A stretch of 57,914 nt of DNA from Rickettsiales bacterium (GCA_031279085.1 JAITJD010000011.1:1-57914); one strand, 5' to 3'. Shown: positions 13,470-47,094, numbered from the stretch's first letter. Program-made: numbers and translations. The notes: generated by a model from the letters alone, not told the origin.

Positions 13470-13649
13470 TTAGAAAATCCAACCTACGATTGCATTCAGC
13501 ACATTGTCCGTAAAAAAGAAAAACAATGCCGCCAGACCGGAAACAATCAAAATCATTATGCTGGCGCTTACGACTGTATTACGTGATGGCCATATTATTT
13601 TAAACCATTCGATTCGCACTGACTTAATGTATTCTAGCAATTTCTTCAT
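13470..13649 (-). CDS. secE: Preprotein translocase subunit SecE
   Basis: The ORF extends to 13730 (TTG). The 59-aa core starting at the ATG at 13649, 'MKKLLEYIKSVRIEWFKIIWPSRNTVV...' plus a single TM helix, matches short-form SecE. The start is uncertain; alternatives are 13694, 13706 and 13730. Confidence 0.8.
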   Translation of the reverse strand: MKKLLEYIKSVRIEWFKIIWPSRNTVVSASIMILIVSGLAALFFFFTDNVLNAIVGWIF

Positions 13650-13756
13650 AAACAAAATTCCGGTTTTCCATTTATCCGTCCCGCGACGGCCCATACCAAA
13701 GACCATGGCGAGATTTTCAGTTTTCCGCAAGATTTGACGCGCAAATCAAAGAAAAC

Positions 13757-13830
13757 TGGCAGGGGCAGAAGGAATCGAACCCTCATCCGCGGTTTTGGAG
13801 ACCGATATTCTACCGTTGAACTATGCCCCT
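13757..13830 (-). tRNA. trnW: tRNA-Trp (anticodon CCA)
   Basis: The reverse complement reads AGGGGCATAGTTCAACGGTAGAATATCGGTCTCCAAAACCGCGGATGAGGGTTCGATTCCTTCTGCCCCTGCCA. It has a 7-bp acceptor stem AGGGGCA/TGCCCCT, the anticodon loop CT-CCA-AA, a GGTTCGATTCC T-arm and an encoded CCA. Its position upstream of secE is conserved. Confidence 0.93.
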
Positions 13831-14129
13831 AATTATTGTTCACAGCAGACGGAAAATGGCAGACGGCAGACAGGCTTAACCCGTCATCCATCACCAATCT
13901 GCCATTTTTTATTATCTGTATTTTACCAATCAAAACTCTCTTTATATTTATTTAACGTGCGCTAACATAGCACAGTCATCTTAAAAATCAAGCGGAAACT
14001 ATTATAAATCTTTAATTTGGACAGCGCAAGCAAAAAATTCACGGTTCGCAAAATATAAATATTTGGACAAACCGAGCGCCAAAAGCGCGATATCGGGACT
14101 TGCTATATTTGCGAGTTGCATTTTTTCGC

Positions 14130-14159
14130 TTGCGCAGGGACGCACTTTTTTTCTACAAT
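14130..14159 (+). promoter_or_regulatory. Candidate sigma70 promoter of the virB8-10 operon
   Basis: -35 TTGCGC (14130-14135), an 18-nt spacer, and -10 TACAAT (14154-14159), about 18 nt upstream of the GGAGAG RBS and ATG at 14177. Confidence 0.4.
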
Positions 14160-14176
14160 TTCATAACAAAGGAGAG

Positions 14177-14869
14177 ATGCCGCCAGTGTCAGATATTATA
14201 GAACCGCCAGTTTTGCTGTCAAGATTGATGACTTTTGTATTCGCCGCCGTGCTGGTCGTGGTGGTTGTGCTGGTAATAACTCTGACAAAAATGTATCCCT
14301 TGGAAAAGACGCAGATTCTTTTTCTGACGACGCAGCCGCTGGCGAACACGGAAATAAGAATTTCCACCTTTTCGCCCGACAATGAAAATATGGAACTTTA
14401 CAAGCAGGCATTCATCAAGGAATACCTCAATGCCAGAAATGAAATAATCCCGAATGTCGTCGTCATGCAGAAAAAATGGGGAAATGACGAAGAAGGCCGG
14501 GTCAATAGATGGAGCACACCGGAAGTCTATTCACAATTCATGCAAACGCAAATGTGGAAGTCTTATATGGATGAAGCGCCGGACTTTGAATTCTACTGTC
14601 CGGTGGAATTCAACAATATTCTGCCATTCCCGGGCAGGGAAGACACATATATTGTGAAATTCAGATACTTTTGCACAAATACTAATGGACAAGCCGACAA
14701 TAAAGATTCTACAATTGTAAAGGACTTTACAATAGTAATCAGGCTGGAGCTGGATAATATTGTAAAATGGACGGATCGCCTGCATAATCCCTTGGGCATT
14801 CGCGTCGCCGAATATTCGGTGGAGTCCGACGGCGGCGACCCGTTGGAATTTAATTGGGCTTTAAATTAG
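14177..14869 (+). CDS. virB8: Type IV secretion system protein VirB8-like
   Basis: The ORF runs 14063-14869. The ATG at 14177 has an AAAGGAGAG RBS. The protein is bitopic, with a short N-terminus and the TM helix 'LMTFVFAAVLVVVVVLVITL'. A periplasmic domain follows with VirB8-like blocks ('MYPLEKTQILFLTT', 'YKQAFIKEYLNARNEI', 'YIVKFRYF'). It sits directly upstream of virB9 and virB10. Confidence 0.7.
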   Translation: MPPVSDIIEPPVLLSRLMTFVFAAVLVVVVVLVITLTKMYPLEKTQILFLTTQPLANTEIRISTFSPDNENMELYKQAFIKEYLNARNEIIPNVVVMQKKWGNDEEGRVNRWSTPEVYSQFMQTQMWKSYMDEAPDFEFYCPVEFNNILPFPGREDTYIVKFRYFCTNTNGQADNKDSTIVKDFTIVIRLELDNIVKWTDRLHNPLGIRVAEYSVESDGGDPLEFNWALN

Positions 14870-14896
14870 GTTTTAAAAGGCAAAAAAGGACAAAAT

Positions 14897-16372
14897 ATGA
14901 ACAATGTATCAAGATTATTTGACAAAGCCTTTATTTTATGCGCAATATGTTTTATGCTTTGCGCATTCTCCGCAAATGCAGAGGGGATTCAAGAAGCTTG
15001 GGATAATCCAAATGCAAACATGGCGACCGGCAGCATAAAGCCGGGGTACGCCCAGCTGACATGGTCTCAAGGCAGTGTTCTGCCAATCAAGCTGCGCAAC
15101 GGAATGGTCACTATGATAAATCTGCCGGCTGGCGAGCAAATACAAGACGGAACAGTCGGCGAAGAGAATTTGTTTAAATTTGAATTGCAGCAAAACGGCC
15201 AGTCCATGTTCATCTCGCCGACCGGAAGCAACTACGGCGCCGATACGAACATGATTGTAACCGGAAAATCCGGAAACAAGTACATATTTTATCTGCGCAG
15301 CGAGCCCGCGAATTCCAGCGAGATAACATACTCCCAAGTTGATGTGGTGTTGGACGGAAACAACGTCATTCCCAGCGCTTCCGGCAACAGCGCCGCCAGC
15401 ACCGGCATGGGCTCTATTTTCAAAAAGGCGGCGGCCGGAACTTCTGTCATCGGCGTCGACGGGGAAGACTATGGGTGGATAAAGTCAATGAAAATCGATC
15501 CGTCCGAATTCCGCTTTGACTTGGATATTTTCGTTCCGAACCCGGACGATTATGTAATCGCGCCCGAACGCGTGTGGCGCGACAGAATCTTCACATACAT
15601 AGACTTTGGCGACAAGGTCATCGCAATGACCCAGCGGCCCGTTGTGTCCCTGCTGGTCGAAGGGGGCGAATCGCCTGTCGGATTCCGCACGGACGGCGAA
15701 AACGGACGGCTGCTTATTATAGAAGCCGTGGGCGATATGGTTCTGCGTTCCGGGCAGAGAATAGTCTGCATCAAAAAACGCGGCAAGCCTTTCCTGATTG
15801 CCGACACCGCCAGCGTGATGGCGCTGGCCGAAGCAAATGTCGCGCAGAGCATGATGTCCAGCCAGTCTCTGAACAATGTCGCTTATTATGGCCAGCCGGC
15901 AGCGATGGCGGCAAATACTCAGAATTACGCGGGAATGCAGGCTGCTTCATTAACCATGGCGTCCGCTGGCGCGGCTTACGGCTCCTCGGGAATAAACATG
16001 CTTCCGACTGAAAGAAACACTGCCGGCGCATATCTGCCGCAGATCAATATTCCGCTGATCAGCAGCAATCAAGCCGGCGTCGCCGTAGAGTTGAAATCGG
16101 ATACATCTGTAAAGGCTTTGAATGATTATTGGACAAGCCTGCTGGCAAAATTCAGCGGAGAAGACGGCAAAGGATTGTTGACGCCTTATATGAATATGGT
16201 GTTTTTCGCCGTTGACGAGCAAGGCGTCGGCGACCTGGGTTCAGAATCGGCAACCGCGCGGCTGTACCGCCTGAGAATCGGCCCGCTGCAAGACATCGAC
16301 ACCGCGCAGACGTTATGCGACAAGATGTTGAAATTCTCCGGCGCCAGCTGCAATGTCGTAAGAATACAATAA
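14897..16372 (+). CDS. virB9: Type IV secretion system protein VirB9/CagX-like with C-terminal SPOR-like domain
   Basis: 491 aa with the signal peptide 'LCAFSANAEG'. The VirB9 N-domain ('VTMINLPAGEQIQ...MFISPTG...TNMIVTGKSGNKYIFYLRS') and C-domain ('IAPERVWRDRIFTYIDFGD...PVVSLLVEGGESPVGFR...LRSGQRIVCI') are present. After about aa 297 there is a low-complexity linker. Residues 393-491 look like a SPOR fold ('LYRLRIGPLQDIDTAQTLCDKMLKFSGASCNVVRIQ'). Confidence 0.85.
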   Translation: MNNVSRLFDKAFILCAICFMLCAFSANAEGIQEAWDNPNANMATGSIKPGYAQLTWSQGSVLPIKLRNGMVTMINLPAGEQIQDGTVGEENLFKFELQQNGQSMFISPTGSNYGADTNMIVTGKSGNKYIFYLRSEPANSSEITYSQVDVVLDGNNVIPSASGNSAASTGMGSIFKKAAAGTSVIGVDGEDYGWIKSMKIDPSEFRFDLDIFVPNPDDYVIAPERVWRDRIFTYIDFGDKVIAMTQRPVVSLLVEGGESPVGFRTDGENGRLLIIEAVGDMVLRSGQRIVCIKKRGKPFLIADTASVMALAEANVAQSMMSSQSLNNVAYYGQPAAMAANTQNYAGMQAASLTMASAGAAYGSSGINMLPTERNTAGAYLPQINIPLISSNQAGVAVELKSDTSVKALNDYWTSLLAKFSGEDGKGLLTPYMNMVFFAVDEQGVGDLGSESATARLYRLRIGPLQDIDTAQTLCDKMLKFSGASCNVVRIQ

Positions 16373-16385
16373 AAGCATCGGGATA

Positions 16386-18731
16386 ATGAAATCGCTGAAA
16401 GAATCTTTCACTGAATTGAGAAAATCAACGCCAAAGCATGCCCAATGGTTGTTGCTGGCCGCTGCTTTTATCGTCGTTCTTATATTGCTTAGCCTTATTT
16501 TTAAAGGAAAGTCCAAACAAGATGTTGGCGTTTTAAGTGATGCGGCGCCCGTTTTGAATATTGAGCCCCAATCTTTGGATTGGTCTTCAACCACAATCGG
16601 TCAGACAAAAAAACAGGAGTTTGTCATTTCTTCAAACCTTCCTGTGAAAATCAAAGATATTCGCTTGCAAAAAGAAGCGCCGGGATTAAAAAAGCCGCTG
16701 ACAACCTGCAAGACGATATCGCAAATTGACAAGAACGTGCCCTGCACAATAACCATGGAATACTCGCCCGATCAGGTTCAGGATAATACCGCAATATCCC
16801 TGTTTGTCGATTGGATTGACCGGCGCGACATTGCGCGGTCTGATACAATGACTTATACAGAAAAGATTGTAATTTCTATCGGTGCCGTTGAAAAAGTCAA
16901 ATCAGAACCTGTTCCGCCGCCAAAGCCGGAACCCGAACCGGAGCCTGAACCAGATCCGATATCCGACCCCCTGCCGGCGCCGAAGATAAAGCCAGAACCG
17001 GATCCAAAACCTATTCCTGAACCAAAACCTGAACCAAAGCCCGCGCCAGAACAGGATTCGAAATCTTGCTTTGATTTCGCGTTTCCAGGATATAACGCGT
17101 CCGGCCAGCAAATCGGCTGGATACGTCCGCAACATGGCGAGTATGTGTTTCATCCTTTTGCAGACAAGAAATGCGCTTCGCCGACAGGAATATATAATCC
17201 TGACAACGGAATAATCTCAGACATCAATAACCCGTCCAAAAAGATAGGAACAGATGCGGAGCATATCGGATACGGCGCCATAACAAGCGGAACTATCCCG
17301 CAGCTTTCAAACAGCGCCAAGCCACGCGCCATGAACAAGGCGCTGCAACTGGATTCCGAGCAAATAAAAACTCAGACATACACTGGTTTCCACAAGTTGT
17401 TAGACGCGCCAAAACCTGAAAAGCTTTTTACATCTTCCGGTGAAACGGTGGTTTCCAGCAAACCTTATGATCGTTCGTTCCTTTTGCGCCAGTACAAGCC
17501 TATCCCTGCGACAATCGTATCGGAAATCCGCGCGGACCTTCAAACTTTGAATGATAAGAACGGGCTGCCTGTGACGGCAACGGTCGACCGCAATGTATAC
17601 TCCGACAATGGCCGCAATATTATAATCCCGACCGGAACAATGATATTGGGTTATGTTACCGGCGATATTCCCGGCCCATATAAAACAATCGGACGAATGC
17701 ATATTAAATGGTATCAATTTATTCGTCCCGATGGGGTTGAATTCAATTTTGGCACTATGGATAAGCATCCGTTTTCCGCCGATAGCCAAGGGCGCGCCGG
17801 CGTTCCCGGACACGGCAGCAGCGATTATTTAGAGCAATTCGTCATGCCGCTGCTGACGGCGGTCGTGCCGGCGGCGGTAAATATGATCGCGCCAATTGCG
17901 GACAAGTTCGTAAATCAGATTGATTTGGACAATAACACGGTGACGCAAAGCGGACAGGTTCGTTCTTCGGAATTGGCGAAGCAAGAAGTCATCACAACTT
18001 GGAACAAGATTGCAAACAAATTGATGGTCGATATGATGGACAATACTGTGCCGCCTTTTTCCATTGCCGCCGGCACCCGCATTACTGTTTTTTCACCTGT
18101 TGATCTGCTGGTTACATGCGGTGTTCAAGGTGATAATACTAAAGCATGCGCGATCCAGGCATATAGTGAAGAAACGCGCTTTGATATTAGTAGTCGCGAC
18201 GAAGTAACCCAAGCCAAGGAAGCCGAAAATATTGGCAGTATGAGTGGACAAGTGCGTTCGTTCAATTTGGAGCCATACTGCACAAATGATGTAAAAACTG
18301 GCAACAAAACTGTCGACGAGTCAAAAGCAAAAGAAATACAAGAGGCAGGCCTTGATTATCGCACGGTTTTATTCTACTGCCAGTCCCTAAACTATCAGGC
18401 AATCAACACTGCAAAGCAAAATGCAGTGTTTCAGAACCAGCAGCAAACCAGCATGACAACCACAAACGCAAGCGGCGAGAAAGTCCAAATGACCATTGGC
18501 TCTGAAGACTATAATAAAAATGTTCTGGGGCTTGAATACAAAGACGACGGCACTATAAAGAATCCATTCCAAAAAGAAGCCGCGCCTGTTGCGACAGGCA
18601 TTACCTGCGAAGACGGCACGAAGCCGGATCCAAACGGCTGTTGTACTGGTGAAACTTATACCGATATGGGCGAAGATGGCTTTAATTGTTGTCCCGCCGG
18701 CAGCGGCGATTGCTTTCCGCCAATACTATAA
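16386..18731 (+). CDS. virB10: Type IV secretion system protein VirB10/TrbI-like, extended
   Basis: 781 aa. It has an N-terminal TM helix (aa 20-39), a Pro-rich spacer 'PVPPPKPEPEPEPEPDP...PEPKPEPKPAPE' (aa 173-222), and a TrbI core. The core reads 'IPATIVSEIRADL...LPVTATVDRNVYSDNGRNIIIPTGTMILGYV...GRMHIKWYQFIRPDGVEF...DSQGRAGVPGH' (aa about 365-576). There are also extra N-proximal and C-terminal regions. Confidence 0.88.
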   Translation: MKSLKESFTELRKSTPKHAQWLLLAAAFIVVLILLSLIFKGKSKQDVGVLSDAAPVLNIEPQSLDWSSTTIGQTKKQEFVISSNLPVKIKDIRLQKEAPGLKKPLTTCKTISQIDKNVPCTITMEYSPDQVQDNTAISLFVDWIDRRDIARSDTMTYTEKIVISIGAVEKVKSEPVPPPKPEPEPEPEPDPISDPLPAPKIKPEPDPKPIPEPKPEPKPAPEQDSKSCFDFAFPGYNASGQQIGWIRPQHGEYVFHPFADKKCASPTGIYNPDNGIISDINNPSKKIGTDAEHIGYGAITSGTIPQLSNSAKPRAMNKALQLDSEQIKTQTYTGFHKLLDAPKPEKLFTSSGETVVSSKPYDRSFLLRQYKPIPATIVSEIRADLQTLNDKNGLPVTATVDRNVYSDNGRNIIIPTGTMILGYVTGDIPGPYKTIGRMHIKWYQFIRPDGVEFNFGTMDKHPFSADSQGRAGVPGHGSSDYLEQFVMPLLTAVVPAAVNMIAPIADKFVNQIDLDNNTVTQSGQVRSSELAKQEVITTWNKIANKLMVDMMDNTVPPFSIAAGTRITVFSPVDLLVTCGVQGDNTKACAIQAYSEETRFDISSRDEVTQAKEAENIGSMSGQVRSFNLEPYCTNDVKTGNKTVDESKAKEIQEAGLDYRTVLFYCQSLNYQAINTAKQNAVFQNQQQTSMTTTNASGEKVQMTIGSEDYNKNVLGLEYKDDGTIKNPFQKEAAPVATGITCEDGTKPDPNGCCTGETYTDMGEDGFNCCPAGSGDCFPPIL

Positions 18732-18998
18732 ATAGGCGGGAGATAAGAGGTAATAAGGCGGCAAGTTGTGTTATTTATCAATCCCGTTTTATGCTTCTAA
18801 ACTCTTACTTCTAACCTTTTATTTCCTGCCTCTTACCTTTTTTATGATTCGGCACCTAATAATAAAAAATGCCTAACGAATCGGAAATATGATAATAGCT
18901 TCAACTTCGAGTTGTAGCATTGTACATATTCTAATTATTCTTCTATAAAACCTTCAACGAAATTTAATAAATTACACATCTTACAAGGAGAAAATATC

Positions 18999-19346
18999 AT
19001 GGTTGCACAAACACTGAAAACAAATTTGAACGTCGTAAAATTTCAAAATGGCGAGCAGTTGTGGTTTTGGTTTTTACATTCAAAAAAAGTTCAAAATGGT
19101 TTTAAAATAAAAAGCTTTTCGAATCAAAAATATGCATGCGAGCTGCTGGACCTAGAAATTTTAATCACCAAGCTATATCTTTCCGGTCAGATAAGCGACG
19201 AGCAGCTTGCGGTCATGAAAGAATTCGGAGACAAGCAGCGCGCGCCGCGTCAGCATGTATGGAACGAAAACCGCAAGGCGGCGGTTTGGAATTCCGCAAT
19301 GCAGACTCTGGAATCCGCCGCCAGAAACAAGGAATGGATAGAATAA
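18999..19346 (+). CDS. Hypothetical protein (115 aa), no recognisable family
   Basis: A strong AAGGAG RBS lies 8 nt upstream of the ATG. The protein is soluble, with no signal peptide, and follows a 267-nt AT-rich spacer after virB10. Confidence 0.55.
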   Translation: MVAQTLKTNLNVVKFQNGEQLWFWFLHSKKVQNGFKIKSFSNQKYACELLDLEILITKLYLSGQISDEQLAVMKEFGDKQRAPRQHVWNENRKAAVWNSAMQTLESAARNKEWIE

Positions 19347-19735
19347 ACTTACCGACGCAAAATGCTGTCAGAGGCAACGGACTAATTTTCATGCTTATTG
19401 GATTCACATCAAAATCATCAAAAATCCTGCCAAGAATATTATGCAAGAATTTCCGCCATTGCATCGTTCTTTTCAACAACAGGCGGCGCGGATATATTCT
19501 TGCACAAATCGCCTTGGACGGAGTGCGGCTTGTCCCGATCGGCGCGCATGAAATAAAAAAACTGCAATCGGCCGGCTGGATATTCGTAAAATCAAACCCG
19601 AAGAAAAGCCGCGGCCGCCCGATGGTTCCAAACTTTCTAACATGCGTCGGATTTGCCAAGCGAGCTTTGGGAATCAATAAACCATTCATCTGGACGCCCG
19701 ACCAACTTTATAAATATTTAAATAATAGAAAATAA
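19334..19735 (+). CDS. Hypothetical protein (133 aa), basic, possible DNA-binding
   Basis: The ATG at 19334 overlaps the end of the previous ORF by 13 nt. It contains the AT-hook-like 'KKSRGRP'. The RBS is weak, and the longer 19136 start would overlap the previous gene heavily. Confidence 0.35.
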   Translation: MDRINLPTQNAVRGNGLIFMLIGFTSKSSKILPRILCKNFRHCIVLFNNRRRGYILAQIALDGVRLVPIGAHEIKKLQSAGWIFVKSNPKKSRGRPMVPNFLTCVGFAKRALGINKPFIWTPDQLYKYLNNRK

Positions 19736-19762
19736 AAAAACAGCTGCGGCAAAAGCCGCAGC
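19733..19762 (-). terminator. Rho-independent terminator of yidC
   Basis: The stem is gctgcggc (19743-19750) with gccgcagc (19755-19762) and a 4-nt loop. On the minus strand it is followed by TGTTTTTTT (19742-19734). It lies 38 nt after the yidC stop. Confidence 0.75.
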
Positions 19763-19799
19763 GCGTTTACAAATTAATCTCACAATGAATTTTTGCAAT

Positions 19800-22235: not shown

Positions 22236-22291
22236 ATCTTGTGAAAGATAGCACGGCGAAAAACATTTTTCAACAGGCAAATAAAAACTTG

Positions 22292-28784: not shown

Positions 28785-30353
28785 TCATTTCTTCTTGGCG
28801 GCCGCGATAAAAGCGTTGAACAAAGGGTGGCCGTCGTACGGATTGCTTTGGAATTCGGGGTGAAACTGGCCGGCTATAAAAAAGGGGTGATCTGTCAGCT
28901 CTATGATTTCCGGCAGCTTTCCATCAGGCGACATTCCTGAAACAATCATGCCGTTTTTTTCCAAAATATCGCGGTATCTGATTTGCAGCTCGTACCGGTG
29001 CCGGTGCCGTTCGGAAATCTCTGGCGCGACGTAAATCTTTTCCGCCAAAGTTCCGGTTTTTATAATGCACGGATACGCGCCCAGACGCAATGTTCCGCCC
29101 ATGTCGGCGCGATCATGTCCGGGCATTATGTCTATCAGGGGTTCTTTGCAGCCTTTGTCAAATTCCGTGGAGTCCGCGGCCAGCCCGCACGCATTGCGCG
29201 CAAACTCTATCGCGGCAACCTGCATGCCCAGACAGATTCCAAGATACGGGATTTTGTTTTTCCGCGCATAACCGGCGGCCGTGATTTTGCCATCAACGCC
29301 GCGCGCGCCGAAACCGCCGGGCACCAATATTCCGTCAAAGCCCGACAAATCGGATTCCGATATTTTTTCGGCATCGCATTTTTTGATTTTGACATGGACA
29401 TTATTTTGAATGCCCGCGTGAAACAAAGCCTCGAACAAAGATTTGTAGGCGTCGGGCACATGGAAATATTTGCCGACAACGCCTATTGTGATTTCCGGCA
29501 AAGAATCGGACAAATAGCTTTCTATCCTGTCAAACCGCGACATGTCGCCGGACGATTTTTCCATTCCGAAATGTTCGGCGATTATGCCGAACACATTCTG
29601 TTTCTCATACACATTTGGAATTTTATAGATATTATCAACATCAAGCCCGCTGATAACATTCCGCGCGGGCAAGTTGCAGAACATGCCTATTTTTTTGCGC
29701 TCTTCCTCTTCCAACAGCCTGTGAGCCCGAACTATCAGCATATCCGCCTGGATTCCGTTTTCCAGCAACGCGCGCGCCGACATCTGCGTAGGCTTGGTTT
29801 TTAATTCGCCGCTTTTTTCCAAATACGGCGCCAATGTCAGATGAACGAACATGACATTGCGGCGGCCCATATCGTTTGCGAACTGGCGGATTGATTCCAG
29901 AAATATCTTTCCTTCGATATCGCCGACTGTCCCGCCGATTTCGCATATTACAAAGTCCGCGTCAACAGGCCTGCCTATGTATTCTTTTATCTTGTCGCTG
30001 ATATGCGGAATCATTTGAACGGTGGCGCCGAGATAATCGCCGCGCCGTTCGGCATTCAGCACATCCCAGTAAATGCGGCCGCCCGACACCGAATCATTTC
30101 TGGAAAGCCGCGCGCTAAGGAATCTTTCGTAATATCCCAAATCCAAGTCTGTTTCAAACCCGTCGTTGGTGACATATACCTCGCCATGCTGGAACGGCGA
30201 CATCGTTCCCGGATCCACATTCAGATAAGGATCGAATTTCCGCGCATGCACCGAATATCCGCGGGATTGAAGAAGAGCGCCGATGCCGGCCAACGCAACG
30301 CCTTTACCCAAGCTTGAAACCACGCCCCCAGTTATGAAAATATATTTCGCCAT
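28785..30353 (-). CDS. pyrG: CTP synthase
   Basis: 522 aa with 'KYIFITGGVVSSLGKGV' and the glutaminase 'GICLGMQ' and 'HRHRYE' motifs. Confidence 0.96.
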   Translation of the reverse strand: MAKYIFITGGVVSSLGKGVALAGIGALLQSRGYSVHARKFDPYLNVDPGTMSPFQHGEVYVTNDGFETDLDLGYYERFLSARLSRNDSVSGGRIYWDVLNAERRGDYLGATVQMIPHISDKIKEYIGRPVDADFVICEIGGTVGDIEGKIFLESIRQFANDMGRRNVMFVHLTLAPYLEKSGELKTKPTQMSARALLENGIQADMLIVRAHRLLEEEERKKIGMFCNLPARNVISGLDVDNIYKIPNVYEKQNVFGIIAEHFGMEKSSGDMSRFDRIESYLSDSLPEITIGVVGKYFHVPDAYKSLFEALFHAGIQNNVHVKIKKCDAEKISESDLSGFDGILVPGGFGARGVDGKITAAGYARKNKIPYLGICLGMQVAAIEFARNACGLAADSTEFDKGCKEPLIDIMPGHDRADMGGTLRLGAYPCIIKTGTLAEKIYVAPEISERHRHRYELQIRYRDILEKNGMIVSGMSPDGKLPEIIELTDHPFFIAGQFHPEFQSNPYDGHPLFNAFIAAAKKK

Positions 30354-30405
30354 AAGTCCATGTCCTTATGGACTTTCATCATACAATATTTTAACATTCC
30401 AATCA

Positions 30406-32337
30406 ATGAGAGATTTTCTTGAACAATTGTTTCACAATTCATTTCTATGGTCGCCGTTGGCGATGGCGATCGGGGCCGCTTTATATTTTTCCATGCCGAC
30501 GGAACCGGCGGTGTCGTATCCATGGCTGATTGCTGGATTGGCGGCGGCAATCCTGATATTTAGAAGAACCGACATAATCATCGCATCGGCTTTGCTGTTT
30601 ATTTTCGGATTCGCGTATGCGGCGGGATTCGCAAGGCTGACGGATACTCCGCAGCTATCGCATAATTTGCGAAACATTCAGATCTCCGGAATTGTGCAAG
30701 ATATAGACTACACCGATGGAAAAACGCGAATATTTTTAAAAACATCCGACATCGCGGCGGGTAAAACAGCCGTGGTCAGACTGTCCGCCGCAGAAGACAA
30801 GCCAGTTCCGCGAATAGGCGAAACGATAAAGGCGCGCGTGTTTCTGTTCAGGCCTTCGGGCCCCTTTGCGCCGGAATCTTTTGATTATGCGCGCTGGGCA
30901 TATTTTAACAAGATATCCGCAACGGGATATTTGACCGATTATGAAATTATTTCCGAATCGCGGACATCCGGCATAAACTCTTTGCGGAATTACATGCGCG
31001 GCAAGACAAATTCGTTTTTATCCGACGCTCTGGTTTTGGGCTATAAGAATGCTGTGCCGAAAGACGAAGCAAAAATTTGGACTGCGTCCGGCATAGGGCA
31101 TGTATGGTCAATCAGCGGATTTCACATGACACTGGTGTCGGGCTGGCTGTTTCTGCTGTTTTATACGATTTTCAGATTAATTCCCGCAATCACCCGCCGA
31201 ATCCCGGCAAAGTATCCGGCAATGGCTTGCGCATGGGCGGGCCTGGCTTTTTATCTTTTGATTTCAGGCCTTGATGTCGCGACTATCCGCGCGTTTTTGA
31301 TGACCACATTGATATTCGCCGCATTTATTTTCGGACGGAATGTTTTTTCATTGCGCAATATATGCATTGTTTTCTTCGCTGTTTTTCTGATAAATCCGCA
31401 CTATGTTATGCAGCCGGGATTTCAGCTGTCTTTTTCCGCGATATTCGGTCTGGCTTGGTTTTTCAAAAAGGGCTGGCGCGGGAAAACGACATTTTGGCAG
31501 AAACTGCTGAATATTGCGAAAGCCGCCATAATGACATCGATAATCGCAAGCCTCTTCACGGCGCCTTTTGTCGCGTATCATTTTAATTCTCTGCCGATAT
31601 ATTCGCTGGTCGGGAATTTGGTTCTGCTGCCGGTATTTTCCTTTGCCGTCATGCCGCTGGTAATGCTGGGGACAATAAGCGCGCTGTTCGGCTTTACACT
31701 TCCGCTGGATTGGTCGGCTGATATTTACGAGTTTGCGCTGGCGGTTGCGAATAAAATCGCGGGGCTTCCGTACGCGCAGATACAGCTGCCGGCAATATCG
31801 GGAGGTGCTTTGCTACTGCTTGCGACAGGACTGGCTTGCCTGATGTTCATAGAAAGCCGCCGGCGAATAAATATAATGATGTTTTGCATTTTTACAGCTT
31901 TGGGCATCGCGGCGGTCGCATTTCAGAAAAAGCCTTTATTTTACGCCACATCCGATCACGAGCTGGTCGCGTTCGTCCATGACGGAAAATTAGAATTCAA
32001 TAAAACCAGATCGGCCAATCATTATTTTGCTTTCGATTCCTGGAAGCTGCTGAATTTTGAAAAAATTGAAACCGGAAACAAAAGACGCAAATGCGACGCG
32101 GGACTTTGCATTTACACAACCAAGAACTGGACCGCGGCTTATGTTCAGAAATATGTTCCGCTGTCGAAAAACATCGCAAGTCTTTGCGCTGATTCGAAAA
32201 TAGATTTTATAATTTCTTATTATGAAATCACCGCGCCAAAATGCGATTATAAAATCCTGCGCGGCGGATTCGTGATATATGAATCAGGAAGAATCAAATA
32301 CACTCCGTACAATCGTGGGTGGCATATTCCGCGCTGA
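30406..32337 (+). CDS. comEC: ComEC/Rec2-family competence channel protein (no metallo-beta-lactamase domain)
   Basis: The ORF starts at 30283, where it overlaps pyrG. The ATG at 30406, 'MRDFLEQLF', is more plausible. The protein is multi-TM with 'GIGHVWSISGFHMTLVSG'. The C-terminus lacks an HxHxDH motif. Confidence 0.8.
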   Translation: MRDFLEQLFHNSFLWSPLAMAIGAALYFSMPTEPAVSYPWLIAGLAAAILIFRRTDIIIASALLFIFGFAYAAGFARLTDTPQLSHNLRNIQISGIVQDIDYTDGKTRIFLKTSDIAAGKTAVVRLSAAEDKPVPRIGETIKARVFLFRPSGPFAPESFDYARWAYFNKISATGYLTDYEIISESRTSGINSLRNYMRGKTNSFLSDALVLGYKNAVPKDEAKIWTASGIGHVWSISGFHMTLVSGWLFLLFYTIFRLIPAITRRIPAKYPAMACAWAGLAFYLLISGLDVATIRAFLMTTLIFAAFIFGRNVFSLRNICIVFFAVFLINPHYVMQPGFQLSFSAIFGLAWFFKKGWRGKTTFWQKLLNIAKAAIMTSIIASLFTAPFVAYHFNSLPIYSLVGNLVLLPVFSFAVMPLVMLGTISALFGFTLPLDWSADIYEFALAVANKIAGLPYAQIQLPAISGGALLLLATGLACLMFIESRRRINIMMFCIFTALGIAAVAFQKKPLFYATSDHELVAFVHDGKLEFNKTRSANHYFAFDSWKLLNFEKIETGNKRRKCDAGLCIYTTKNWTAAYVQKYVPLSKNIASLCADSKIDFIISYYEITAPKCDYKILRGGFVIYESGRIKYTPYNRGWHIPR

Positions 32338-38963: not shown

Positions 38964-38966
38964 TTT

Positions 38967-44204: not shown

Positions 44205-44230
44205 CCGCCGTTCCGGCGGCTTATTTTTTT
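44205..44230 (+). terminator. Rho-independent terminator of uvrD (shared convergent gap)
   Basis: ccgccg (44205-44210), loop ttc, cggcgg (44214-44219), followed by CTTATTTTTTT. The T-tract overlaps the 3' end of the minus-strand gene 44221-45588. Confidence 0.6.
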
Positions 44231-45588
44231 CTGATGATTTTCCACCAATTTTTTGCGGTGCCGGTCGTTTTGCCCCAGATTTTCTTAATGTCGCCGCCAA
44301 CCTGTTTACCAAAGCTTTCATCTATGCTGCCGCCGAGCTTTTTTGCAATCTCGCCGGCCTTGGTTGCAAGATAGGCGACCAGGCAGCCCACAATCAGGGT
44401 TATCATAAAGCCGTCGTTTTTCAATGTCGGCACTTGCGCCGCCAAGTTTGAATCCACAACGCCCGACAGTATCGCCGCGCACAGCGCGATGACTATTGAC
44501 AGCGACACGAAATAAATCGCCGACTGAATAAATTTCTGAATTTGCGCCGAAAGAGACTGCGTCTTGAATAATTCAAAAAACTGATTGAATATTTTTCCCG
44601 CGTATCCGTCATAGCTTGTCTTGCCACCGCCGCCGCCGAATGCATCAATCGGCGCGCCGAACATTCCGTCCGACTGATTATCCTGGCCGCCAAAAACTTG
44701 CGCGATCGCGGTAAAGGGCAGCATAATGATAACCAAAAACAAGTCCGCAATCACACCCAGCGCCGTCAATGCGAACTTCCACATATTGTAAATGAATATC
44801 ACCACAAAGACCGCGCCGGCCACGAATGTCAGCGCGCTGGTGCCGATGCCGGCCAGCATCCATTTCCAACCGGCGGCGACCGCAGTGGAAAAGAATCCCG
44901 ACAGGCGCGTCGTAAGGCACAACAAATCTGCGGTTTGCGCGGAATTTACAAACGCGTCATTGGTATGCGCGACCGCGGTGTATTTGTGTATGGCCGCGCA
45001 GGTGTCCGGCAGAATCGCGCCGCTGGCGGCGGACACAGAATTCAATATCAAATCGGACAGTTCTGTTCCGATTGACAGAATCGGCCCCATAATCCACATA
45101 AATAATTGCGCGGGCCCCTGCTCTATTACAAGAATCCATACTGTTGCAAGCACCAGCTTTTTGACGATAGCCTCCAATTGTTCTCTGACTTTTTTCTTGC
45201 CGCGAATCATTTGGTATGATTCCATCATTATCCAGAACGCCAGCATGACGATTATGAATACGCTGATAAATCTGACCAGCGATTTTTCCAAGACTTGACC
45301 GACATAGGACAACGCGCCGATAAACGCGCGGCCGACGCGCGCCTCTATCGGAACATAGTCTTTCACCAAAACATTTTGCTGAAATTCTGATTGAAATGAT
45401 TTTATGTCTTCGGTCAGCCCGTTCACAAACAAAGTCTGATTCTGTTCGGTCATCCATGTTCCAAAGTTGCCGATGTCGGCGTTTGTCGCGGCGAACGAGC
45501 CGCAGCAAAAACCGGCAAAAAGCGCGCAGCAGGCGGCTGTCATAGCCGCTTTTCTTATTTTTAATAAAAATTTATTAATTGCATTCAT
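44221..45588 (-). CDS. Polytopic membrane protein, paralog P1 (VirB6/TrbL-like architecture)
   Basis: 455 aa with the signal peptide 'CCGSFAATNA' and a periplasmic loop carrying a Cys pair. The TM block contains 'WKFALTALGVIADLFLVIIMLPFTAIAQVF'. The basic tail is 'KKIWGKTTGTAKNWWKIIRKK'. It is the last gene of a 4-gene operon. Confidence 0.6.
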   Translation of the reverse strand: MNAINKFLLKIRKAAMTAACCALFAGFCCGSFAATNADIGNFGTWMTEQNQTLFVNGLTEDIKSFQSEFQQNVLVKDYVPIEARVGRAFIGALSYVGQVLEKSLVRFISVFIIVMLAFWIMMESYQMIRGKKKVREQLEAIVKKLVLATVWILVIEQGPAQLFMWIMGPILSIGTELSDLILNSVSAASGAILPDTCAAIHKYTAVAHTNDAFVNSAQTADLLCLTTRLSGFFSTAVAAGWKWMLAGIGTSALTFVAGAVFVVIFIYNMWKFALTALGVIADLFLVIIMLPFTAIAQVFGGQDNQSDGMFGAPIDAFGGGGGKTSYDGYAGKIFNQFFELFKTQSLSAQIQKFIQSAIYFVSLSIVIALCAAILSGVVDSNLAAQVPTLKNDGFMITLIVGCLVAYLATKAGEIAKKLGGSIDESFGKQVGGDIKKIWGKTTGTAKNWWKIIRKK

Positions 45589-45597
45589 GCTCGCCCG

Positions 45598-47037
45598 CTA
45601 CTTTTCTCCCATTCCTTTCGTAGCCATTTCGCCAATTTTCTTTGGTATGTTCCATACTGTCTGTCCAAGTCCTTTGAGCCATCCGCCAAAGTCAAAGGAT
45701 TCTTCTTCGTCTTTGCCCAGCATTTCGTCAATCTTTGGCGACACCGCATAGTAATACACCAGGAATATGCCCAGCATCAGCATCAAGAATTCCCATCCGT
45801 TCTTCATAAAGTCAAATGCGCCGGGATATTTGCGCTCCACTTCCGCGCGGCTGGCGGTAAAGCAGTTTTGGAATATTGTCTTATCCATCTCGCCGGCGGC
45901 GGATGCGACTTTTTCGCATTTGGAAAATACCGCCATTACGGACAAGGTTTTCGCATCCTGAGTATTGGCGGTTTCGTACATCAATGGAGGCAGGATTGAA
46001 TTGTATCCGTCCTGCGGCCCGGGGAAATATTCGTCGGCGGCAAATGACACGGTCGCGTAGATTATCAGTATTTTCAATGTTATCGCGACAATGCGGACTG
46101 CGGACTTTACCAGCATGTTGATAGAATTCGTCACAATGCCCGACACCAGCGGCCAGACTGTTTCAAAAGCCCCCGCAGCAATAATCAGCGGCAGAAATAT
46201 TATCAGGAACACAAGCTTGAAAATAACAGACAATACTTGGAAAAACAGATTGAACCCGATAATCAGAAACATTATGACCAGCGCAAGGCCTGAAATCCAA
46301 GTAAAGGTGCCGCCGCCCATGTCCATCCATGAATAATTCATCAATGCAAAGCCGCCGGCCGCGCCGGCCAGCATGACCGCGTTCAGATTTCCCATAACGC
46401 ACATGAATGGCTTTAACACCGGATTCAAAATATCATTGTTTTTTTCGGAAGTCCCGCATTGGGCGGAATTGGCGATTCCCGTCGCGGCCATGGATAATTC
46501 GGCCCCGACAAACATGACAGGCGCGATTGTGATATTAGTCACCGCCCGCAGAGCGCTGGTGCCGCCGAACCCAAGCGCGCCCAGCAGCGCGCCGGCCAGC
46601 ATTATGCGCGCGGCCTGCTTCCATACTTTGTCAAACCAGGACCCGAATTCCAGCTTCCTTTCGCCCGCGTCCAGATTTGCATTTTTCTTGGACACTTCGT
46701 AAAAATGCTGCGCGGCGCTTATGAACAAAAAAACTCCGAATCCGATTGCCATCAAAAGCCAGATATTTTTAACCATTGCGACCCAAAAGCTTTCCGCAGC
46801 GGTTCCGATGACGGCAAACAGCTTTTCAATATAGACGCACAGAAAGCATCCGTTCGCAGTGGCTATATCGCCGCCTTGGACGCCGATGGCGGATAAAAAC
46901 TTGTCCAGGCTTGTATATGTTATGCTGTCGCCGCTAATTGACGAAGACAAATACCAAATGCCGATACCCAGGGCTATTCCGCCCATAATCCATTTTATGG
47001 CAATCATAATCAGTTTGGCTTTTAACATAGGCATCAA
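45598..47037 (-). CDS. Polytopic membrane protein, paralog P2 (VirB6/TrbL-like architecture)
   Basis: 479 aa with an N-terminal TM helix and the CxxC 'NGCFLCVYIEKLF'. The Cys-pair loop is 'SAQCGT...PFMCVMG'. The TM core contains 'LVFLIIFLPLIIAAGAF'. The tail is 'GWLKGLGQTVWNIPKKIGE'. Confidence 0.6.
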   Translation of the reverse strand: MMPMLKAKLIMIAIKWIMGGIALGIGIWYLSSSISGDSITYTSLDKFLSAIGVQGGDIATANGCFLCVYIEKLFAVIGTAAESFWVAMVKNIWLLMAIGFGVFLFISAAQHFYEVSKKNANLDAGERKLEFGSWFDKVWKQAARIMLAGALLGALGFGGTSALRAVTNITIAPVMFVGAELSMAATGIANSAQCGTSEKNNDILNPVLKPFMCVMGNLNAVMLAGAAGGFALMNYSWMDMGGGTFTWISGLALVIMFLIIGFNLFFQVLSVIFKLVFLIIFLPLIIAAGAFETVWPLVSGIVTNSINMLVKSAVRIVAITLKILIIYATVSFAADEYFPGPQDGYNSILPPLMYETANTQDAKTLSVMAVFSKCEKVASAAGEMDKTIFQNCFTASRAEVERKYPGAFDFMKNGWEFLMLMLGIFLVYYYAVSPKIDEMLGKDEEESFDFGGWLKGLGQTVWNIPKKIGEMATKGMGEK

Positions 47038-47094
47038 GCTAGCTGGTATTCAGCGGCAAACATCAAGCATCAAATGCCTGCCGCTTTATGTTCG

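What the first reader, a model, noticed from the sequence alone, without database searches (positions are those of the whole stretch)
14130..18731. Orphan virB8-virB9-virB10 core operon wedged against tRNA-Trp/secE, without virB11 or virD4
Three tightly packed genes (gaps of 27 and 13 nt) encode clear VirB8-, VirB9- and VirB10-family proteins. They form the trans-envelope core of a P-type T4SS.

In rvh-type and most VirB systems, virB10 is followed by virB11 and virD4. Here it is followed by a 267-nt AT-rich gap and two small orphan ORFs, then by convergent yidC. No ATPase, pilin (VirB2), VirB3/4/5/7 or relaxase is present anywhere in the 58 kb.

The only other T4SS-like genes are the five VirB6-like paralogs, 25 kb away. 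The operon is divergent from the highly expressed tRNA-Trp-secE-nusG-rplKAJL-rpoBC block.

This points to an extremely dispersed or reduced T4SS, or to a repurposed VirB8/9/10 envelope-spanning scaffold.
Basis: partly seen in the sequence, partly recalled or inferred. Interest (0 to 1): 0.68.

Follow-up and report, generated by a model that had tools for sequence, protein, structure and literature searches.

The report
Dispersed type IV secretion core module
Three adjacent genes encode the envelope-spanning core of a type IV secretion-type machine, kept at the same chromosomal spot in all 80 sampled species of a tiny-genome gut bacterial order (Rs-D84); its channel genes lie 25 kb away and its motor ATPases have not been located.

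Summary
Window 14186-18731 (+) carries tightly packed VirB8-, VirB9- and VirB10-family genes, all above Pfam gathering cut-offs. They sit between tRNA-Trp/secE and convergent yidC. No VirB2/3/4/5/11/VirD4 homolog is found in the 58 kb.

The contig belongs to order Rs-D84 (relatives of Candidatus Enterousia, genomes about 0.7-1 Mb). The same gene order occurs in 80 of 80 related species. All reading frames are intact, and VirB9 is about as conserved as RecR (median 72% identity).

The architecture is unusual. VirB9 carries a C-terminal SPOR-like domain. VirB10 carries an Ig/ASH-like domain, 14 invariant cysteines and a conserved six-cysteine tail.

The five paralogs at 44.2-51.0 kb are very divergent VirB6/TrbL proteins, shown only by profile-profile bridging. 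The two "orphan" ORFs downstream are conserved genes.

Sister lineages have contiguous rvh-like or conjugative T4SSs with virB4 and virB11. A targeted VirB4 search found only those lineages. It should have detected anything at least about 35% identical.

Most likely this is the core of a dispersed T4SS with rvh/ComB-like organisation and an unlocated, divergent ATPase. An ATPase-less conduit is not excluded. No whole-genome inventory could be run.

The parts
13757..13830 (-). tRNA-Trp (CCA). Start of the divergent secE-nusG-rplKAJL-rpoBC block (context).
   Evidence: ARAGORN. Rfam tRNA, 63.3 bits.
14186..14869 (+). VirB8-like protein, 227 aa from GTG 14186. Alternative start ATG 14177; longest ORF from TTG 14063. 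One N-terminal transmembrane helix, then a periplasmic VirB8 domain.
   Evidence: Pfam PF04335, 9.8e-11, above cut-off. Conserved start and RBS. Hydropathy. Present in 80 of 80 loci, median 46% identity.
14897..16372 (+). VirB9-like protein, 491 aa. Signal peptide aa 1-30. VirB9 N-terminal domain aa 31-155 (14987-15361). VirB9 C-terminal domain aa 200-298 (15494-15790). Disordered Q/A/M-rich linker. C-terminal SPOR-like domain aa 391-491 (16067-16369).
   Evidence: Pfam CagX, 3.4e-22. AlphaFold2 pLDDT 90-98 in the two VirB9 domains and mostly 84-95 in the C-terminal domain, which has a low-confidence loop at aa 444-448. Foldseek to TrwF/VirB9 8rt6_B at E 7e-17, and to 2ofq with TM 0.81. SPOR PF05036: 18 bits here, and 19 of 92 relatives at E<=0.01. 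Median 72% identity over 80 species.
16386..18731 (+). VirB10-like protein, 781 aa. Transmembrane helix aa 21-40 (16446-16505). Ig/ASH-like domain aa 53-136 (16542-16793). Pro-rich linker aa 171-224 (16896-17057). Conserved Cys-bearing block aa 221-300 (17046-17285). TrbI barrel with antenna helices aa 361-577 (17466-18116). Extension aa 578-740. Conserved six-cysteine tail aa 741-781 (18606-18728).
   Evidence: Pfam TrbI, 2.4e-17. Profile versus PDB: ComB10 2bhv at 2.8e-18 over aa 365-591, ungapped through the antenna. ASH or Cep192_D4 hits in 8 and 6 of 52 relatives. Per-block conservation, with all 14 Cys invariant or nearly so in 74 sequences. Intact in all 80 loci.
18999..19346 (+). Conserved small basic protein (115 aa, pI 9.3) with its own RBS (AAGGAG). 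No known family.
   Evidence: Found in 69 of 80 loci at 51-66% identity. No Pfam or PDB match. Absent from sister T4SS loci.
19391..19735 (+). Second conserved small basic protein (114 aa, pI 11.1). It is the C-terminal part of the mechanical ORF 19136-19735. No known family.
   Evidence: Found in 66 of 80 loci. No Pfam or PDB match. Absent from sister T4SS loci.
44221..49604 (-). Four tandem polytopic membrane paralogs (455, 479, 413 and 423 aa). Very divergent VirB6/TrbL-superfamily proteins.
   Evidence: 5-7 hydrophobic segments. No direct Pfam, NCBIfam or PDB hit. Related to the L103 tandem family by phmmer down to 8.5e-15 for the fifth paralog. L103 family versus plasmid VirB6: hhalign 97.8%, E 1e-12. 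Paralogs plus L103: 96.5%. Paralogs alone: 19%. Same synteny in L101 and L102.
49703..50992 (+). Fifth VirB6/TrbL-like paralog (429 aa), divergent from the other four.
   Evidence: Evidence as for the other four paralogs. 926 homolog clusters; the 120 best-scoring are 68-77% identical, and the few that carry a source name are called 'hypothetical protein'.
30283..32337 (+). ComEC (inner-membrane DNA channel). Possible partner if the system imports DNA; this is inference only.
   Evidence: Pfam Competence PF03772, 3.7e-51, plus DUF4131.

Best explanation
The three genes encode the envelope-spanning scaffold of a chromosomal, vertically inherited type IV secretion-type machine. The machine is fixed in the order Rs-D84 and its genes are scattered, as in the Rickettsiales rvh and H. 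pylori ComB systems.

**Proposed working**
- VirB10 is anchored in the inner membrane by its helix (aa 21-40). It crosses the periplasm through an Ig-like domain and a proline-rich linker. Its TrbI barrel with antenna helices forms the outer-membrane pore together with the VirB9 C-terminal domain.
- VirB9 forms the periplasmic ring. Its extra SPOR-like domain ties the complex to peptidoglycan.
- VirB8 nucleates the inner-membrane part.
- The five VirB6-like proteins encoded 25 kb away supply the inner-membrane channel.

**Shown**
- Family membership and folds.
- Domain architecture.
- Conservation and fixed position.
- Remote VirB6 homology of the paralogs.

**Inferred**
- That the proteins assemble together.
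- That a VirB4-type ATPase encoded elsewhere, and too divergent for my search, powers the machine.
- The cargo. The gene content seen so far lacks virB11 and virD4 at the locus and includes ComEC. It fits a ComB-type import mode at least as well as effector export.
For: - **Family and fold.** Pfam hits are above cut-off for all three proteins. The VirB9 model matches TrwF, X. citri VirB9, DotH and CagX. The VirB10 profile matches ComB10, CagY, TrwE and VirB10.
- **Fixed position.** The order rpoB...secE | virB8-9-10-orf115-orf2 | yidC-lspA-kefB-ksgA-recR is conserved; the left-hand junction (secE/nusG next to virB8) is visible in 77 of the 80 Rs-D84 species loci and yidC downstream in 53, contig ends accounting for most of the rest.
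- **No decay.** All reading frames are intact.
- **Conservation.** Median identity is 72% for VirB9, against 72% for RecR and 56% for YidC.
- **Second locus.** The five paralogs link to VirB6 by hhalign (96.5-97.8%). The fifth paralog is 68-77% identical to its 120 best-scoring homologs; conservation of the other four was not measured beyond two relatives (48-64%). At least two T4SS loci therefore already exist in this genome.
- **Origin.** Related VirB9 proteins (36-47% identity) sit in complete rvh-like or conjugative T4SSs. The module therefore derives from a full system.
- **Precedents for scattered chromosomal T4SS genes.** ComB is one (PMC7366825). Rickettsiales rvh is another, from established knowledge.
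Against: - No VirB4, VirB11, VirD4, VirB2 or VirB3 was found in the 58-kb window, in about 1.45 Mb of related loci, or in L101-L104.
- A database search with the VirB4 of a related system gave only 179 hits at E<=1e-10. The 120 listed were 53-61% identical to the query. All five sampled groups lie next to a Tcp-like pilus cluster. Four of them are contiguous with their own virB8; their own virB9 is also visible in three, the fourth locus ending inside virB8.
- A VirB4 that is 36% identical shares 21 five-residue words with that query, so it should have been caught.
- VirB9 in Rs-D84 has more than 1,600 clusters. A co-inherited VirB4 of ordinary divergence is therefore missing from most Rs-D84 genomes.
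- No experimental data exist.
Confidence: 0.55

Rival explanations
1. ATPase-less conduit. Rs-D84 has lost VirB4, VirB11 and VirD4. It keeps only VirB6x5, VirB8, VirB9 and VirB10 as a trans-envelope channel. The channel would be passive or driven through VirB10 as a TonB-like energy sensor. It would take up DNA, nucleotides or other metabolites that the reduced genome cannot make.
For: - Both T4SS loci lack the ATPase genes that flank their counterparts in relatives. virB4 lies upstream of the post-VirB4 genes and virB11 lies after virB10 in L087, L089-L100 and L105.
- The VirB4 search found no Rs-D84-type protein, although it should detect 35% identity or more.
- VirB9 and VirB10 show new, strongly conserved additions, which suggests a changed job: the SPOR-like domain, the cysteine-rich tail and invariant cysteines.
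- Published work reports that Rs-D84 lacks standard transporters and nucleotide and amino-acid synthesis (PMC12306168).
Against: - No functional T4SS-type machine without VirB4 is known (established knowledge).
- Rs-D84 VirB8, VirB10 and the VirB6-like proteins are much more diverged from relatives than VirB9 is: 21-29% identity against 45%. A VirB4 below about 30% identity would have escaped the word-based search.
- Only about 8% of a genome was inspected.
Confidence: 0.22
2. ComB-type DNA-import machine. This is a functional reading and is compatible with the best explanation. The VirB6/8/9/10 set brings double-stranded DNA across the outer membrane. ComEC then moves it into the cytoplasm. 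The DNA serves transformation or nucleotide scavenging.
For: - The locus ends in virB8-9-10 without virB11 or virD4, as the comB6-comB10 operon does. ComB is also split into two operons and works with ComEC (PMC7366825).
- ComEC is encoded in the window.
- The best solved-structure match of the VirB10 profile is H. pylori ComB10, at 2.8e-18 against 2e-8 for TrwE.
- JGI names some orthologs ComB9.
- Rs-D84 reportedly lacks nucleotide synthesis, and no type IV pili were reported for it (PMC12306168).
Against: - ComB needs ComB4, ComB2 and ComB3, and none was found.
- NCBIfam scores do not prefer ComB10 (56.6 bits) over VirB10 (64.2 bits).
- The closest plasmid VirB10s are rhizobial, at about 30% identity.
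- The nearest relatives carry virB11.
- ComEC is widespread in bacteria that are not known to be competent.
Confidence: 0.3
3. Spare duplicate set. The triad would be a redundant copy of genes from a complete virB locus elsewhere in the same genome, like the extra virB8, virB9 and virB4 copies of Rickettsiales.
For: - Duplicated virB8 genes occur in the sister lineages.
- The whole genome was not inspected.
Against: - The VirB4 search found no sister-type complete locus attributable to Rs-D84.
- VirB9 here is among the most conserved proteins of the region, which is not expected of a spare copy.
- The 50%-identity representative search showed the Rs-D84 VirB9 type collapsing into very few clusters. 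Other types lie in clearly different genomic contexts.
Confidence: 0.06
4. Decaying remnant, or cargo of an integrated mobile element.
For: The T4SS gene set at this locus is incomplete.
Against: - The ORFs are intact in 80 of 80 species, with invariant cysteines and long invariant runs.
- The position between housekeeping genes is fixed.
- No relaxase, integrase or repeats were seen. G+C is 44-52%, typical of the 48.5% window.
Confidence: 0.02

Closest known systems
Rickettsiales vir homolog (rvh) T4SS
   Same: - Chromosomal, vertically inherited P-type T4SS in reduced-genome Alphaproteobacteria.
- Genes scattered over several loci.
- A tandem array of several VirB6-like paralogs.
- No VirB1 or VirB5 seen.
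- The nearest relatives of the VirB9 here (L082, L087, L089-L100) have the rvh-like order virB8, small ORF, virB8, virB9, virB10, virB11.
   Different: - In rvh, virB11 and virD4 follow virB10, and virB3-virB4 precede the virB6 array. Neither is so here.
- There is no duplicated virB8 or virB9 at this locus, and no recognisable VirB7.
- VirB9 carries a SPOR-like domain.
- The VirB6-like proteins are short (413-479 aa) and not detectable with Pfam TrbL.
Helicobacter pylori ComB DNA-uptake T4SS
   Same: - Chromosomal and split into separate operons.
- One operon ends in B8-B9-B10.
- No VirB11, VirD4, VirB1 or VirB5.
- ComEC is encoded elsewhere in the genome.
- ComB10 is the best solved-structure match of the VirB10 profile.
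   Different: - comB6 and comB7 sit directly upstream of comB8, and there is a single VirB6.
- A comB2-comB3-comB4 operon exists. No counterpart was found here.
- ComB9 has no SPOR domain.
- The host is an epsilonproteobacterium, so any likeness would be convergent in organisation, not shown ancestry.
Canonical VirB/VirD4 systems (A. tumefaciens VirB, R388 Trw, pKM101 Tra; MPF_T)
   Same: - VirB8, VirB9 and VirB10 families and folds.
- VirB10 layout: transmembrane helix, proline-rich linker, then barrel with antenna.
- Gene order B8-B9-B10.
   Different: - Those systems are one contiguous operon with VirB1-B11 and VirD4, and are usually mobile.
- Sequence identity to them is only 20-30%.
- Scores fall far below the NCBIfam equivalog cut-offs.
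Uncultured gut alphaproteobacterial T4SS next to a Tcp-like pilus cluster (loci L087, L089-L100, L105)
   Same: - VirB9 is 44-46% identical over its two core domains.
- A long VirB9 with a C-terminal extension is shared with L082, L084, L086 and L087.
- Gut metagenome origin.
   Different: - Contiguous trbC-virB3-virB4, a run of three to six unknown genes (four in L089-L092 and L097-L100, five in L087, six in L105), then virB8, small ORF and virB8, followed where the locus reaches that far by virB9; a giant VirB10 (2653 aa) and virB11 are seen only in L087.
- In one lineage (L093-L096) the system is also split after the VirB4 block.

Membership tests
VirB8 (PF04335) | Profile match above the curated cut-off | tested here: met
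   42.3 bits against cut-off 23.2, E 9.8e-11, covering profile positions 18-211 of 213.
VirB8 (PF04335) | Bitopic layout: short N-terminus, one transmembrane helix, periplasmic domain | tested here: met
   A single hydrophobic segment lies near the N-terminus of the 227-aa protein.
VirB9/TrbG/CagX (PF03524) | Profile match above the curated cut-off | tested here: met
   79.7 bits against cut-off 34.2. All 92 relatives match.
VirB9/TrbG/CagX (PF03524) | Two beta-sandwich domains (N-terminal and C-terminal) as in solved core complexes | tested here: met
   The AlphaFold2 domains have pLDDT 90-98. Foldseek: 8rt6_B at 7e-17, 6gyb_B at 8e-17, N-terminal domain versus 7o3t_B with TM 0.79, C-terminal domain versus 2ofq with TM 0.81.
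VirB9 equivalog (NCBIfam TIGR02781) | Score above the equivalog cut-off | tested here: not met
   52.8 bits against cut-off 217.7. The protein is a divergent family member, not an equivalog.
VirB10/TrbI (PF03743) | Profile match above the curated cut-off | tested here: met
   63.8 bits against cut-off 35. All 52 relatives match.
VirB10/TrbI (PF03743) | N-terminal transmembrane helix, proline-rich linker, and C-terminal barrel with a helix-loop-helix antenna | tested here: met
   Transmembrane helix at aa 21-39 and a hydrophobic helix at aa 486-504. Pro-rich stretch at aa 171-224. The alignment to ComB10 2bhv has only small gaps (2-7 residues) through the antenna region. No 3-D model of VirB10 could be made.
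VirB10 and ComB10 equivalogs (NCBIfam NF038091, NF038092) | Score above the equivalog cut-off | tested here: not met
   64.2 bits against 220, and 56.6 bits against 300.
SPOR domain (PF05036), on VirB9 | Profile match above the curated cut-off | tested here: inconclusive
   The window protein scores 18.0 bits against cut-off 21 (E 0.0036). Of 92 relatives, 19 match at E<=0.01, best 2.4e-5. Nine of 120 orthologs carry a precomputed hit.
SPOR domain (PF05036), on VirB9 | Beta-alpha-beta-beta-alpha-beta fold of about 70-100 residues | tested here: met
   The model for aa 394-490 shows that order of elements plus one extra short helix (aa 429-434) between the first helix and the second strand; pLDDT is 84-95 apart from a low-confidence loop at aa 444-448. 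Peptidoglycan binding was not tested.
TrbL/VirB6 (PF04610), five paralogs | Direct profile match | tested here: not met
   No hit for any window paralog or its orthologs in L101 and L102. hhalign of the paralogs alone against seven plasmid VirB6 proteins gives probability 19%, P 1e-3.
TrbL/VirB6 (PF04610), five paralogs | Homology through intermediates (profile-profile) | tested here: met
   The fifth paralog (49703-50992) matches the L103 family by phmmer at 8.5e-15, over the TrbL-matching region. L103 proteins hit TrbL at 1.1e-5. L103 family versus VirB6: hhalign 97.8%, E 1e-12. Paralogs plus L103: 96.5%, E 9e-10.
Complete T4SS (any type) | A VirB4-family ATPase in the same genome | tested here: inconclusive
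   Absent from the window, the 80 loci and L101-L104. A database search found only sister-lineage VirB4s. The search is sensitive to about 35% identity or more. No whole Rs-D84 genome could be read.
Rickettsiales rvh | virB11 and virD4 directly after virB10; virB3-virB4 before the virB6 array | tested here: not met
   virB10 is followed by two small unknown genes and yidC. The paralog array is flanked by uvrD and by a 169-aa unknown gene plus suhB.
Rickettsiales rvh | Several tandem VirB6 paralogs; scattered chromosomal loci | tested here: met
   Five paralogs lie 25 kb from virB8-10.
ComB DNA-uptake T4SS | No VirB11 or VirD4; an operon ending in B8-B9-B10; ComEC in the genome | tested here: met
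   Met at locus level only. ComB organisation is taken from PMC7366825.
ComB DNA-uptake T4SS | ComB2, ComB3 and ComB4 present; DNA import shown | not testable with these tools
   None was found in the sequence available. Function needs experiment.

The most novel reading that the evidence does not exclude
Rs-D84 bacteria run a type IV secretion-derived envelope channel with no dedicated ATPase at all. It would consist of five VirB6-like proteins, VirB8, a peptidoglycan-anchored VirB9 and a VirB10 with a disulfide-knotted tail. It would be a housekeeping-grade import route for DNA, nucleotides or other building blocks taken from the gut or from partner cells. That would make it the first T4SS-type machine that works without VirB4.
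Probability: 0.2. Interest if true: 0.85.

Novelty: new variant of a known kind. Interest (0 to 1): 0.5.

Why it matters
Rs-D84/Enterousia are widespread gut bacteria with genomes below 1 Mb. They lack pathways for amino acids, nucleotides and lipids, and they lack standard transporters (PMC12306168). How they obtain building blocks is an open question.

A T4SS-type envelope machine that is as conserved as their housekeeping genes is a concrete candidate for that interface. It could act by import (ComB-like, with ComEC) or by contact with partner cells. No paper in the searchable library mentions a T4SS in this order, or a VirB9-SPOR fusion.

If complete genomes turn out to lack VirB4, the rule that every T4SS needs VirB4 would have its first exception. 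If VirB4 is found, the case becomes a third example of a dispersed chromosomal T4SS, with new accessory domains. That would be useful for T4SS evolution but not surprising.

Tried and rejected
- **Direct VirB6 assignment of the paralogs.** Pfam, NCBIfam, PDB sequence profiles and hhalign against a single VirB6 all gave nothing. Only bridging through L103 worked.
- **Whole-genome T4SS inventory.** The single genome-collection scan went to synteny, and no tool fetches other regions of a contig.
- **VirB4 search with the L088 VirB4.** It returned only sister-lineage proteins. Cluster names gave no taxonomy beyond "Alphaproteobacteria bacterium".
- **AlphaFold2 of VirB9 with only close orthologs.** The model failed (pLDDT 45.6). 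A diverse alignment fixed it.
- **Function of the two small ORFs.** There is no Pfam or PDB hit and no homolog in sister T4SS loci.
- **Structured RNA in the gaps.** Rfam found only the tRNA.
- **Perfect sigma-70 consensus on the minus strand at 14222-14195.** It is not conserved in relatives, so it was treated as chance.
- **Similarity of the paralogs to the post-VirB4 genes of sister loci.** None was found.
- **Literature.** The Begmatov 2023 Enterousia paper is not held. PMC12306168 has no held supplements.
- **Sample of origin of the window.** It is not on record.

Full report
**What is there.** The region holds three co-directional, tightly packed ORFs on the + strand. All three pass Pfam gathering cut-offs:
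- VirB8 (PF04335): E 9.8e-11.
- VirB9/CagX (PF03524): E 3.4e-22.
- VirB10/TrbI (PF03743): E 2.4e-17.

A 267-nt gap of 31.8% G+C follows. Upstream and divergent lie tRNA-Trp, secE, nusG and the ribosomal-protein/rpoBC block. Downstream and convergent lie yidC and lspA.

Comparison with 40 relatives shows a conserved GTG/TTG start four residues before an (I/V)EPP motif. In the window this start is GTG 14186, preceded by GGAGAG. VirB8 is then a normal-sized 227-aa bitopic protein.

**Whose genome.** VirB9 homologs number at least 1,677 clusters at 90% identity. All listed ones are 70-80% identical and come from gut, rumen or termite MAGs. They are labelled Alphaproteobacteria, "Rickettsiales" or Candidatus Enterousia. 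Enterousia belongs to the GTDB order Rs-D84. Its genomes are 0.67-1.6 Mb. They lack synthesis of amino acids, nucleotides and lipids, lack respiration and lack standard transporters. A partner-dependent life has been proposed (PMC12306168). That paper and the other eleven that mention Rs-D84 say nothing about a T4SS.

**Conservation.** In the 80 species-level loci the order is rpoB...rplKA-nusG-secE | virB8-virB9-virB10-orf115-orf2 | yidC-lspA-kefB-ksgA-recR. It is conserved wherever the contig reaches, apart from 0.4-3 kb insertions before yidC in about ten loci and a few loci where yidC is not found downstream.

Median identity to the window:

| Protein | Median identity |
|---|---|
| VirB9 | 72% |
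| VirB10 | 51% |
| VirB8 | 46% |
| orf115 | 58% |
| RpoB | 85% |
| RecR | 72% |
| SecE | 70% |
| KsgA | 67% |
| YidC | 56% |

All 80 virB10 genes are intact; two are cut only by contig ends. VirB9 has invariant runs tens of residues long. This rules out a decaying remnant or recent mobile cargo. It shows strong purifying selection.

**Architecture.** With a diverse alignment, AlphaFold2 gives three confident VirB9 domains.
- Residues 31-155 and 200-298 match the VirB9 N- and C-terminal domains of R388 TrwF, X. citri VirB9, DotH, CagX and pKM101 TraO. Foldseek E-values go down to 7e-17, and single-domain TM-scores are about 0.8.
- Residues 391-490 form a beta-alpha-beta-beta-alpha-beta unit with one extra short helix. 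The window protein scores just under the SPOR cut-off (18 against 21 bits), and 19 of 92 relatives hit SPOR.
- No paper in the library combines VirB9 with a SPOR domain.

VirB10 (781 aa) has the following parts:
- a transmembrane helix at aa 21-40;
- an Ig/ASH-like domain at aa 53-136;
- a proline-rich linker;
- a conserved block with two cysteines at aa 221-300;
- the TrbI barrel at aa 361-577, which aligns with only small gaps to H. pylori ComB10 through the antenna helices;
- a roughly 200-residue extension ending in a 77%-conserved tail with six invariant cysteines.

All 14 cysteines are invariant or nearly so in 74 species.

Only the barrel resembles plasmid VirB10s, at about 30% identity. 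All three proteins fall far below the NCBIfam equivalog cut-offs.

**The downstream ORFs.** ORF 18999-19346 and ORF 19391-19735 recur in 69 and 66 of the 80 loci. The second is the conserved part of the mechanical ORF 19136-19735. Both proteins are basic (pI 9.3 and 11.1) and lack hydrophobic segments. They have no Pfam or PDB relative and do not occur in sister T4SS loci. The first has its own AAGGAG ribosome-binding site. No strong terminator follows virB10. Whether these genes belong to the system is unknown.

**The five paralogs.** They are polytopic membrane proteins with 5-7 hydrophobic segments and 17-23% identity to the first paralog in the five-way alignment. The 120 best-scoring homologs of the fifth paralog are 68-77% identical to it. 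The same synteny is seen in two more relatives. No direct search recognises them.

A distant metagenomic locus (L103/L104) carries four tandem homologs.
- Two of them hit Pfam TrbL/VirB6 at 1.1e-5 and 4e-4.
- phmmer links the fifth paralog (49703-50992) to them at 8.5e-15 and 5.5e-8, across the TrbL-matching region.
- hhalign against an alignment of seven plasmid VirB6 proteins gives 97.8% (E 1e-12) for the L103 family, 96.5% (E 9e-10) for L103 plus the Rs-D84 paralogs, and 19% (P 1e-3) for the Rs-D84 paralogs alone.

I accept them as very divergent VirB6-superfamily proteins, with about 85% confidence. The genome therefore already has two separate T4SS loci, with a tandem VirB6 array like the Rickettsiales rvh system.

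**Relatives outside Rs-D84.** A search of 1.84 billion 50%-identity representatives found only 468 related clusters. Their gene contexts are as follows.

| Locus | VirB9 identity (full-length BLASTP unless noted) | Context |
|---|---|---|
| L084/L085 | 43% (47% in the representative search) | rpsB-tsf, then virB8-virB9-virB10 and a 135-aa gene; a second "orphan" triad in another housekeeping setting |
| L086 | 38% (44% in the representative search) | virB9-virB10 alone |
| L082 | 37% (40% in the representative search) | rvh-like: virB8, small ORF, virB8, virB9, giant virB10, virB11 |
| L087 | 36% (44% over the core domains) | rvh-like: virB8, small ORF, virB8, virB9, giant virB10, virB11 |
| L088 | 45% (core domains only) | full conjugative-type set with VirD4 and a relaxase-like helicase |
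| L083 | 35% (core domains only) | full conjugative-type set with VirD4 and a relaxase |

The Rs-D84 module therefore descends from complete systems in which virB11 follows virB10.

**The missing ATPases.** No VirB2, 3, 4, 5, 11 or VirD4 is detectable in the window, the 80 loci (about 1.45 Mb, mostly the same region) or L101-L104. Agrobacterium and sister-lineage queries were both used.

A database search with the L088 VirB4 found only 179 proteins at E<=1e-10. The 120 listed are 53-61% identical to the query. Five sampled groups all lie beside a Tcp-like pilus cluster. Four are contiguous with their own virB8, and their own 528-556-aa virB9 is visible in three. In one lineage (L093-L096) the VirB4 block is instead followed by fur and dut. 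None shows Rs-D84 features.

Word counting gives the sensitivity of that search. A VirB4 that is 36% identical shares 21 five-residue words with the query. One that is 25% identical shares 4. Anything at least about 35% identical should therefore have been collected. Rs-D84 would be expected to contribute hundreds of clusters.

The caveat is that Rs-D84 VirB8 (21-24%) and VirB10 (27-33%) are far more diverged from relatives than VirB9 is (45%). The VirB6-like proteins are diverged beyond phmmer reach. A VirB4 near 25-30% identity cannot be excluded. I could not read any whole Rs-D84 genome.

**Interpretation.** A functional, strongly constrained T4SS-type scaffold is shown. The position of its motor, or its absence, is not.

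I weigh the universality of VirB4 against the negative search, and I count the demonstrated dispersal of the VirB6 genes. On that basis I put about 0.55 on a dispersed T4SS with an unlocated, divergent ATPase, and about 0.2 on a truly ATPase-less conduit.

As to cargo, the visible gene set matches the H. pylori ComB import system (PMC7366825) at least as well as an export system. The visible set has no virB11 or virD4 at the locus and has split loci. ComEC lies at 30283-32337, and ComB10 is the best solved-structure match. The organism's nucleotide auxotrophy makes DNA import plausible. This step is inference. NCBIfam scores do not favour ComB10 over VirB10.

**Novelty.** Scattered chromosomal T4SS genes and B8-B9-B10 operons without virB11 or virD4 are both known, in rvh and ComB. 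Four things are new relative to the searchable literature:
- the host order;
- the order-wide fixed position between the secE and yidC blocks;
- the VirB9-SPOR fusion;
- the VirB10 additions.

I rate the finding a new variant of a known kind. It has a modest chance of being something much stranger.

Noticed in passing
window 25568-26698 (-): A D-Ala-D-Ala carboxypeptidase (Peptidase_S11) carries a C-terminal SPOR domain (E 4.3e-7). It is a second SPOR-bearing envelope protein in the same 58 kb.
   Followed up: no
L006 (OZ246409.1), L007 (CAZNTZ010000017.1), L037 (CAVGNU010000001.1): These records are titled 'uncultured Muribaculaceae' or 'Bacteroides fragilis'. All three carry Rs-D84-type virB8-10 with 73-78% VirB9 identity; the flanking Rs-D84 synteny was checked for L006, while L007 shows only the three virB genes. 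The taxonomic labels look wrong. OZ246409.1 is a 716,531-bp 'chromosome' and may be a near-complete Rs-D84 genome.
   Followed up: partly
L084 7581-12257 and L085 (GCA_016735385.1, GCA_016735395.1): A second 'orphan' triad occurs in a 35% G+C alphaproteobacterial MAG: virB8, virB9 (463 aa), virB10 (733 aa), then a 135-aa gene. It lies directly after rpsB-tsf, a different housekeeping context from the window.
   Followed up: partly
L089-L100, L105: In a sister gut alphaproteobacterial lineage, the T4SS (trbC-virB3-virB4...) lies back-to-back with a Tcp-like type IVb pilus cluster in every one of the five VirB4 groups sampled (TcpQ, secretin, PilO-like, T2SSE). In L093-L096 the VirB4 block is followed by fur and dut instead of virB8-virB9, so the T4SS is split there too.
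   Followed up: partly
L103 1750-10811; L104: A tandem array of four VirB6-like genes (854, 432, 745 and 969 aa). The last is fused to an N-terminal M23 peptidase domain. A double-HTH regulator follows.
   Followed up: partly
L087 11608-19569; L082 11452-21429: Giant proteins occupy the VirB10 position in rvh-like relatives. In L087 it is a single 2653-aa protein, and in L082 a 1563-aa and a 1749-aa protein. The TrbI barrel lies near the C-terminus of the 2653-aa and 1749-aa proteins.
   Followed up: no
window 14195-14222 (-): A perfect sigma-70 consensus (TTGACA, 16 nt, TATAAT; 12 of 12) lies on the minus strand inside the first codons of virB8 and points toward tRNA-Trp/secE. It is not conserved in the 80 relatives, most of which score 6-8 of 12.
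   Followed up: yes
window 35928-41339 (-): An AcrB-type pump, a 196-aa protein with no Pfam match where a membrane-fusion protein would be expected, a TolC-like OEP and a MarR regulator form one cluster. This is notable in a genome said to lack standard transporters.
   Followed up: no
window 13470-22280: The T4SS core lies between genes for membrane-protein biogenesis: secE on one side and yidC plus lspA on the other. This holds in the 53 of 80 related species loci where yidC is found downstream; whether it means anything is unknown.
   Followed up: no
window 51061-51570 (+): A 169-aa protein with no family match lies next to the fifth VirB6-like paralog. It is conserved in L101 and L102 at 58% and 50% identity.
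   Followed up: no
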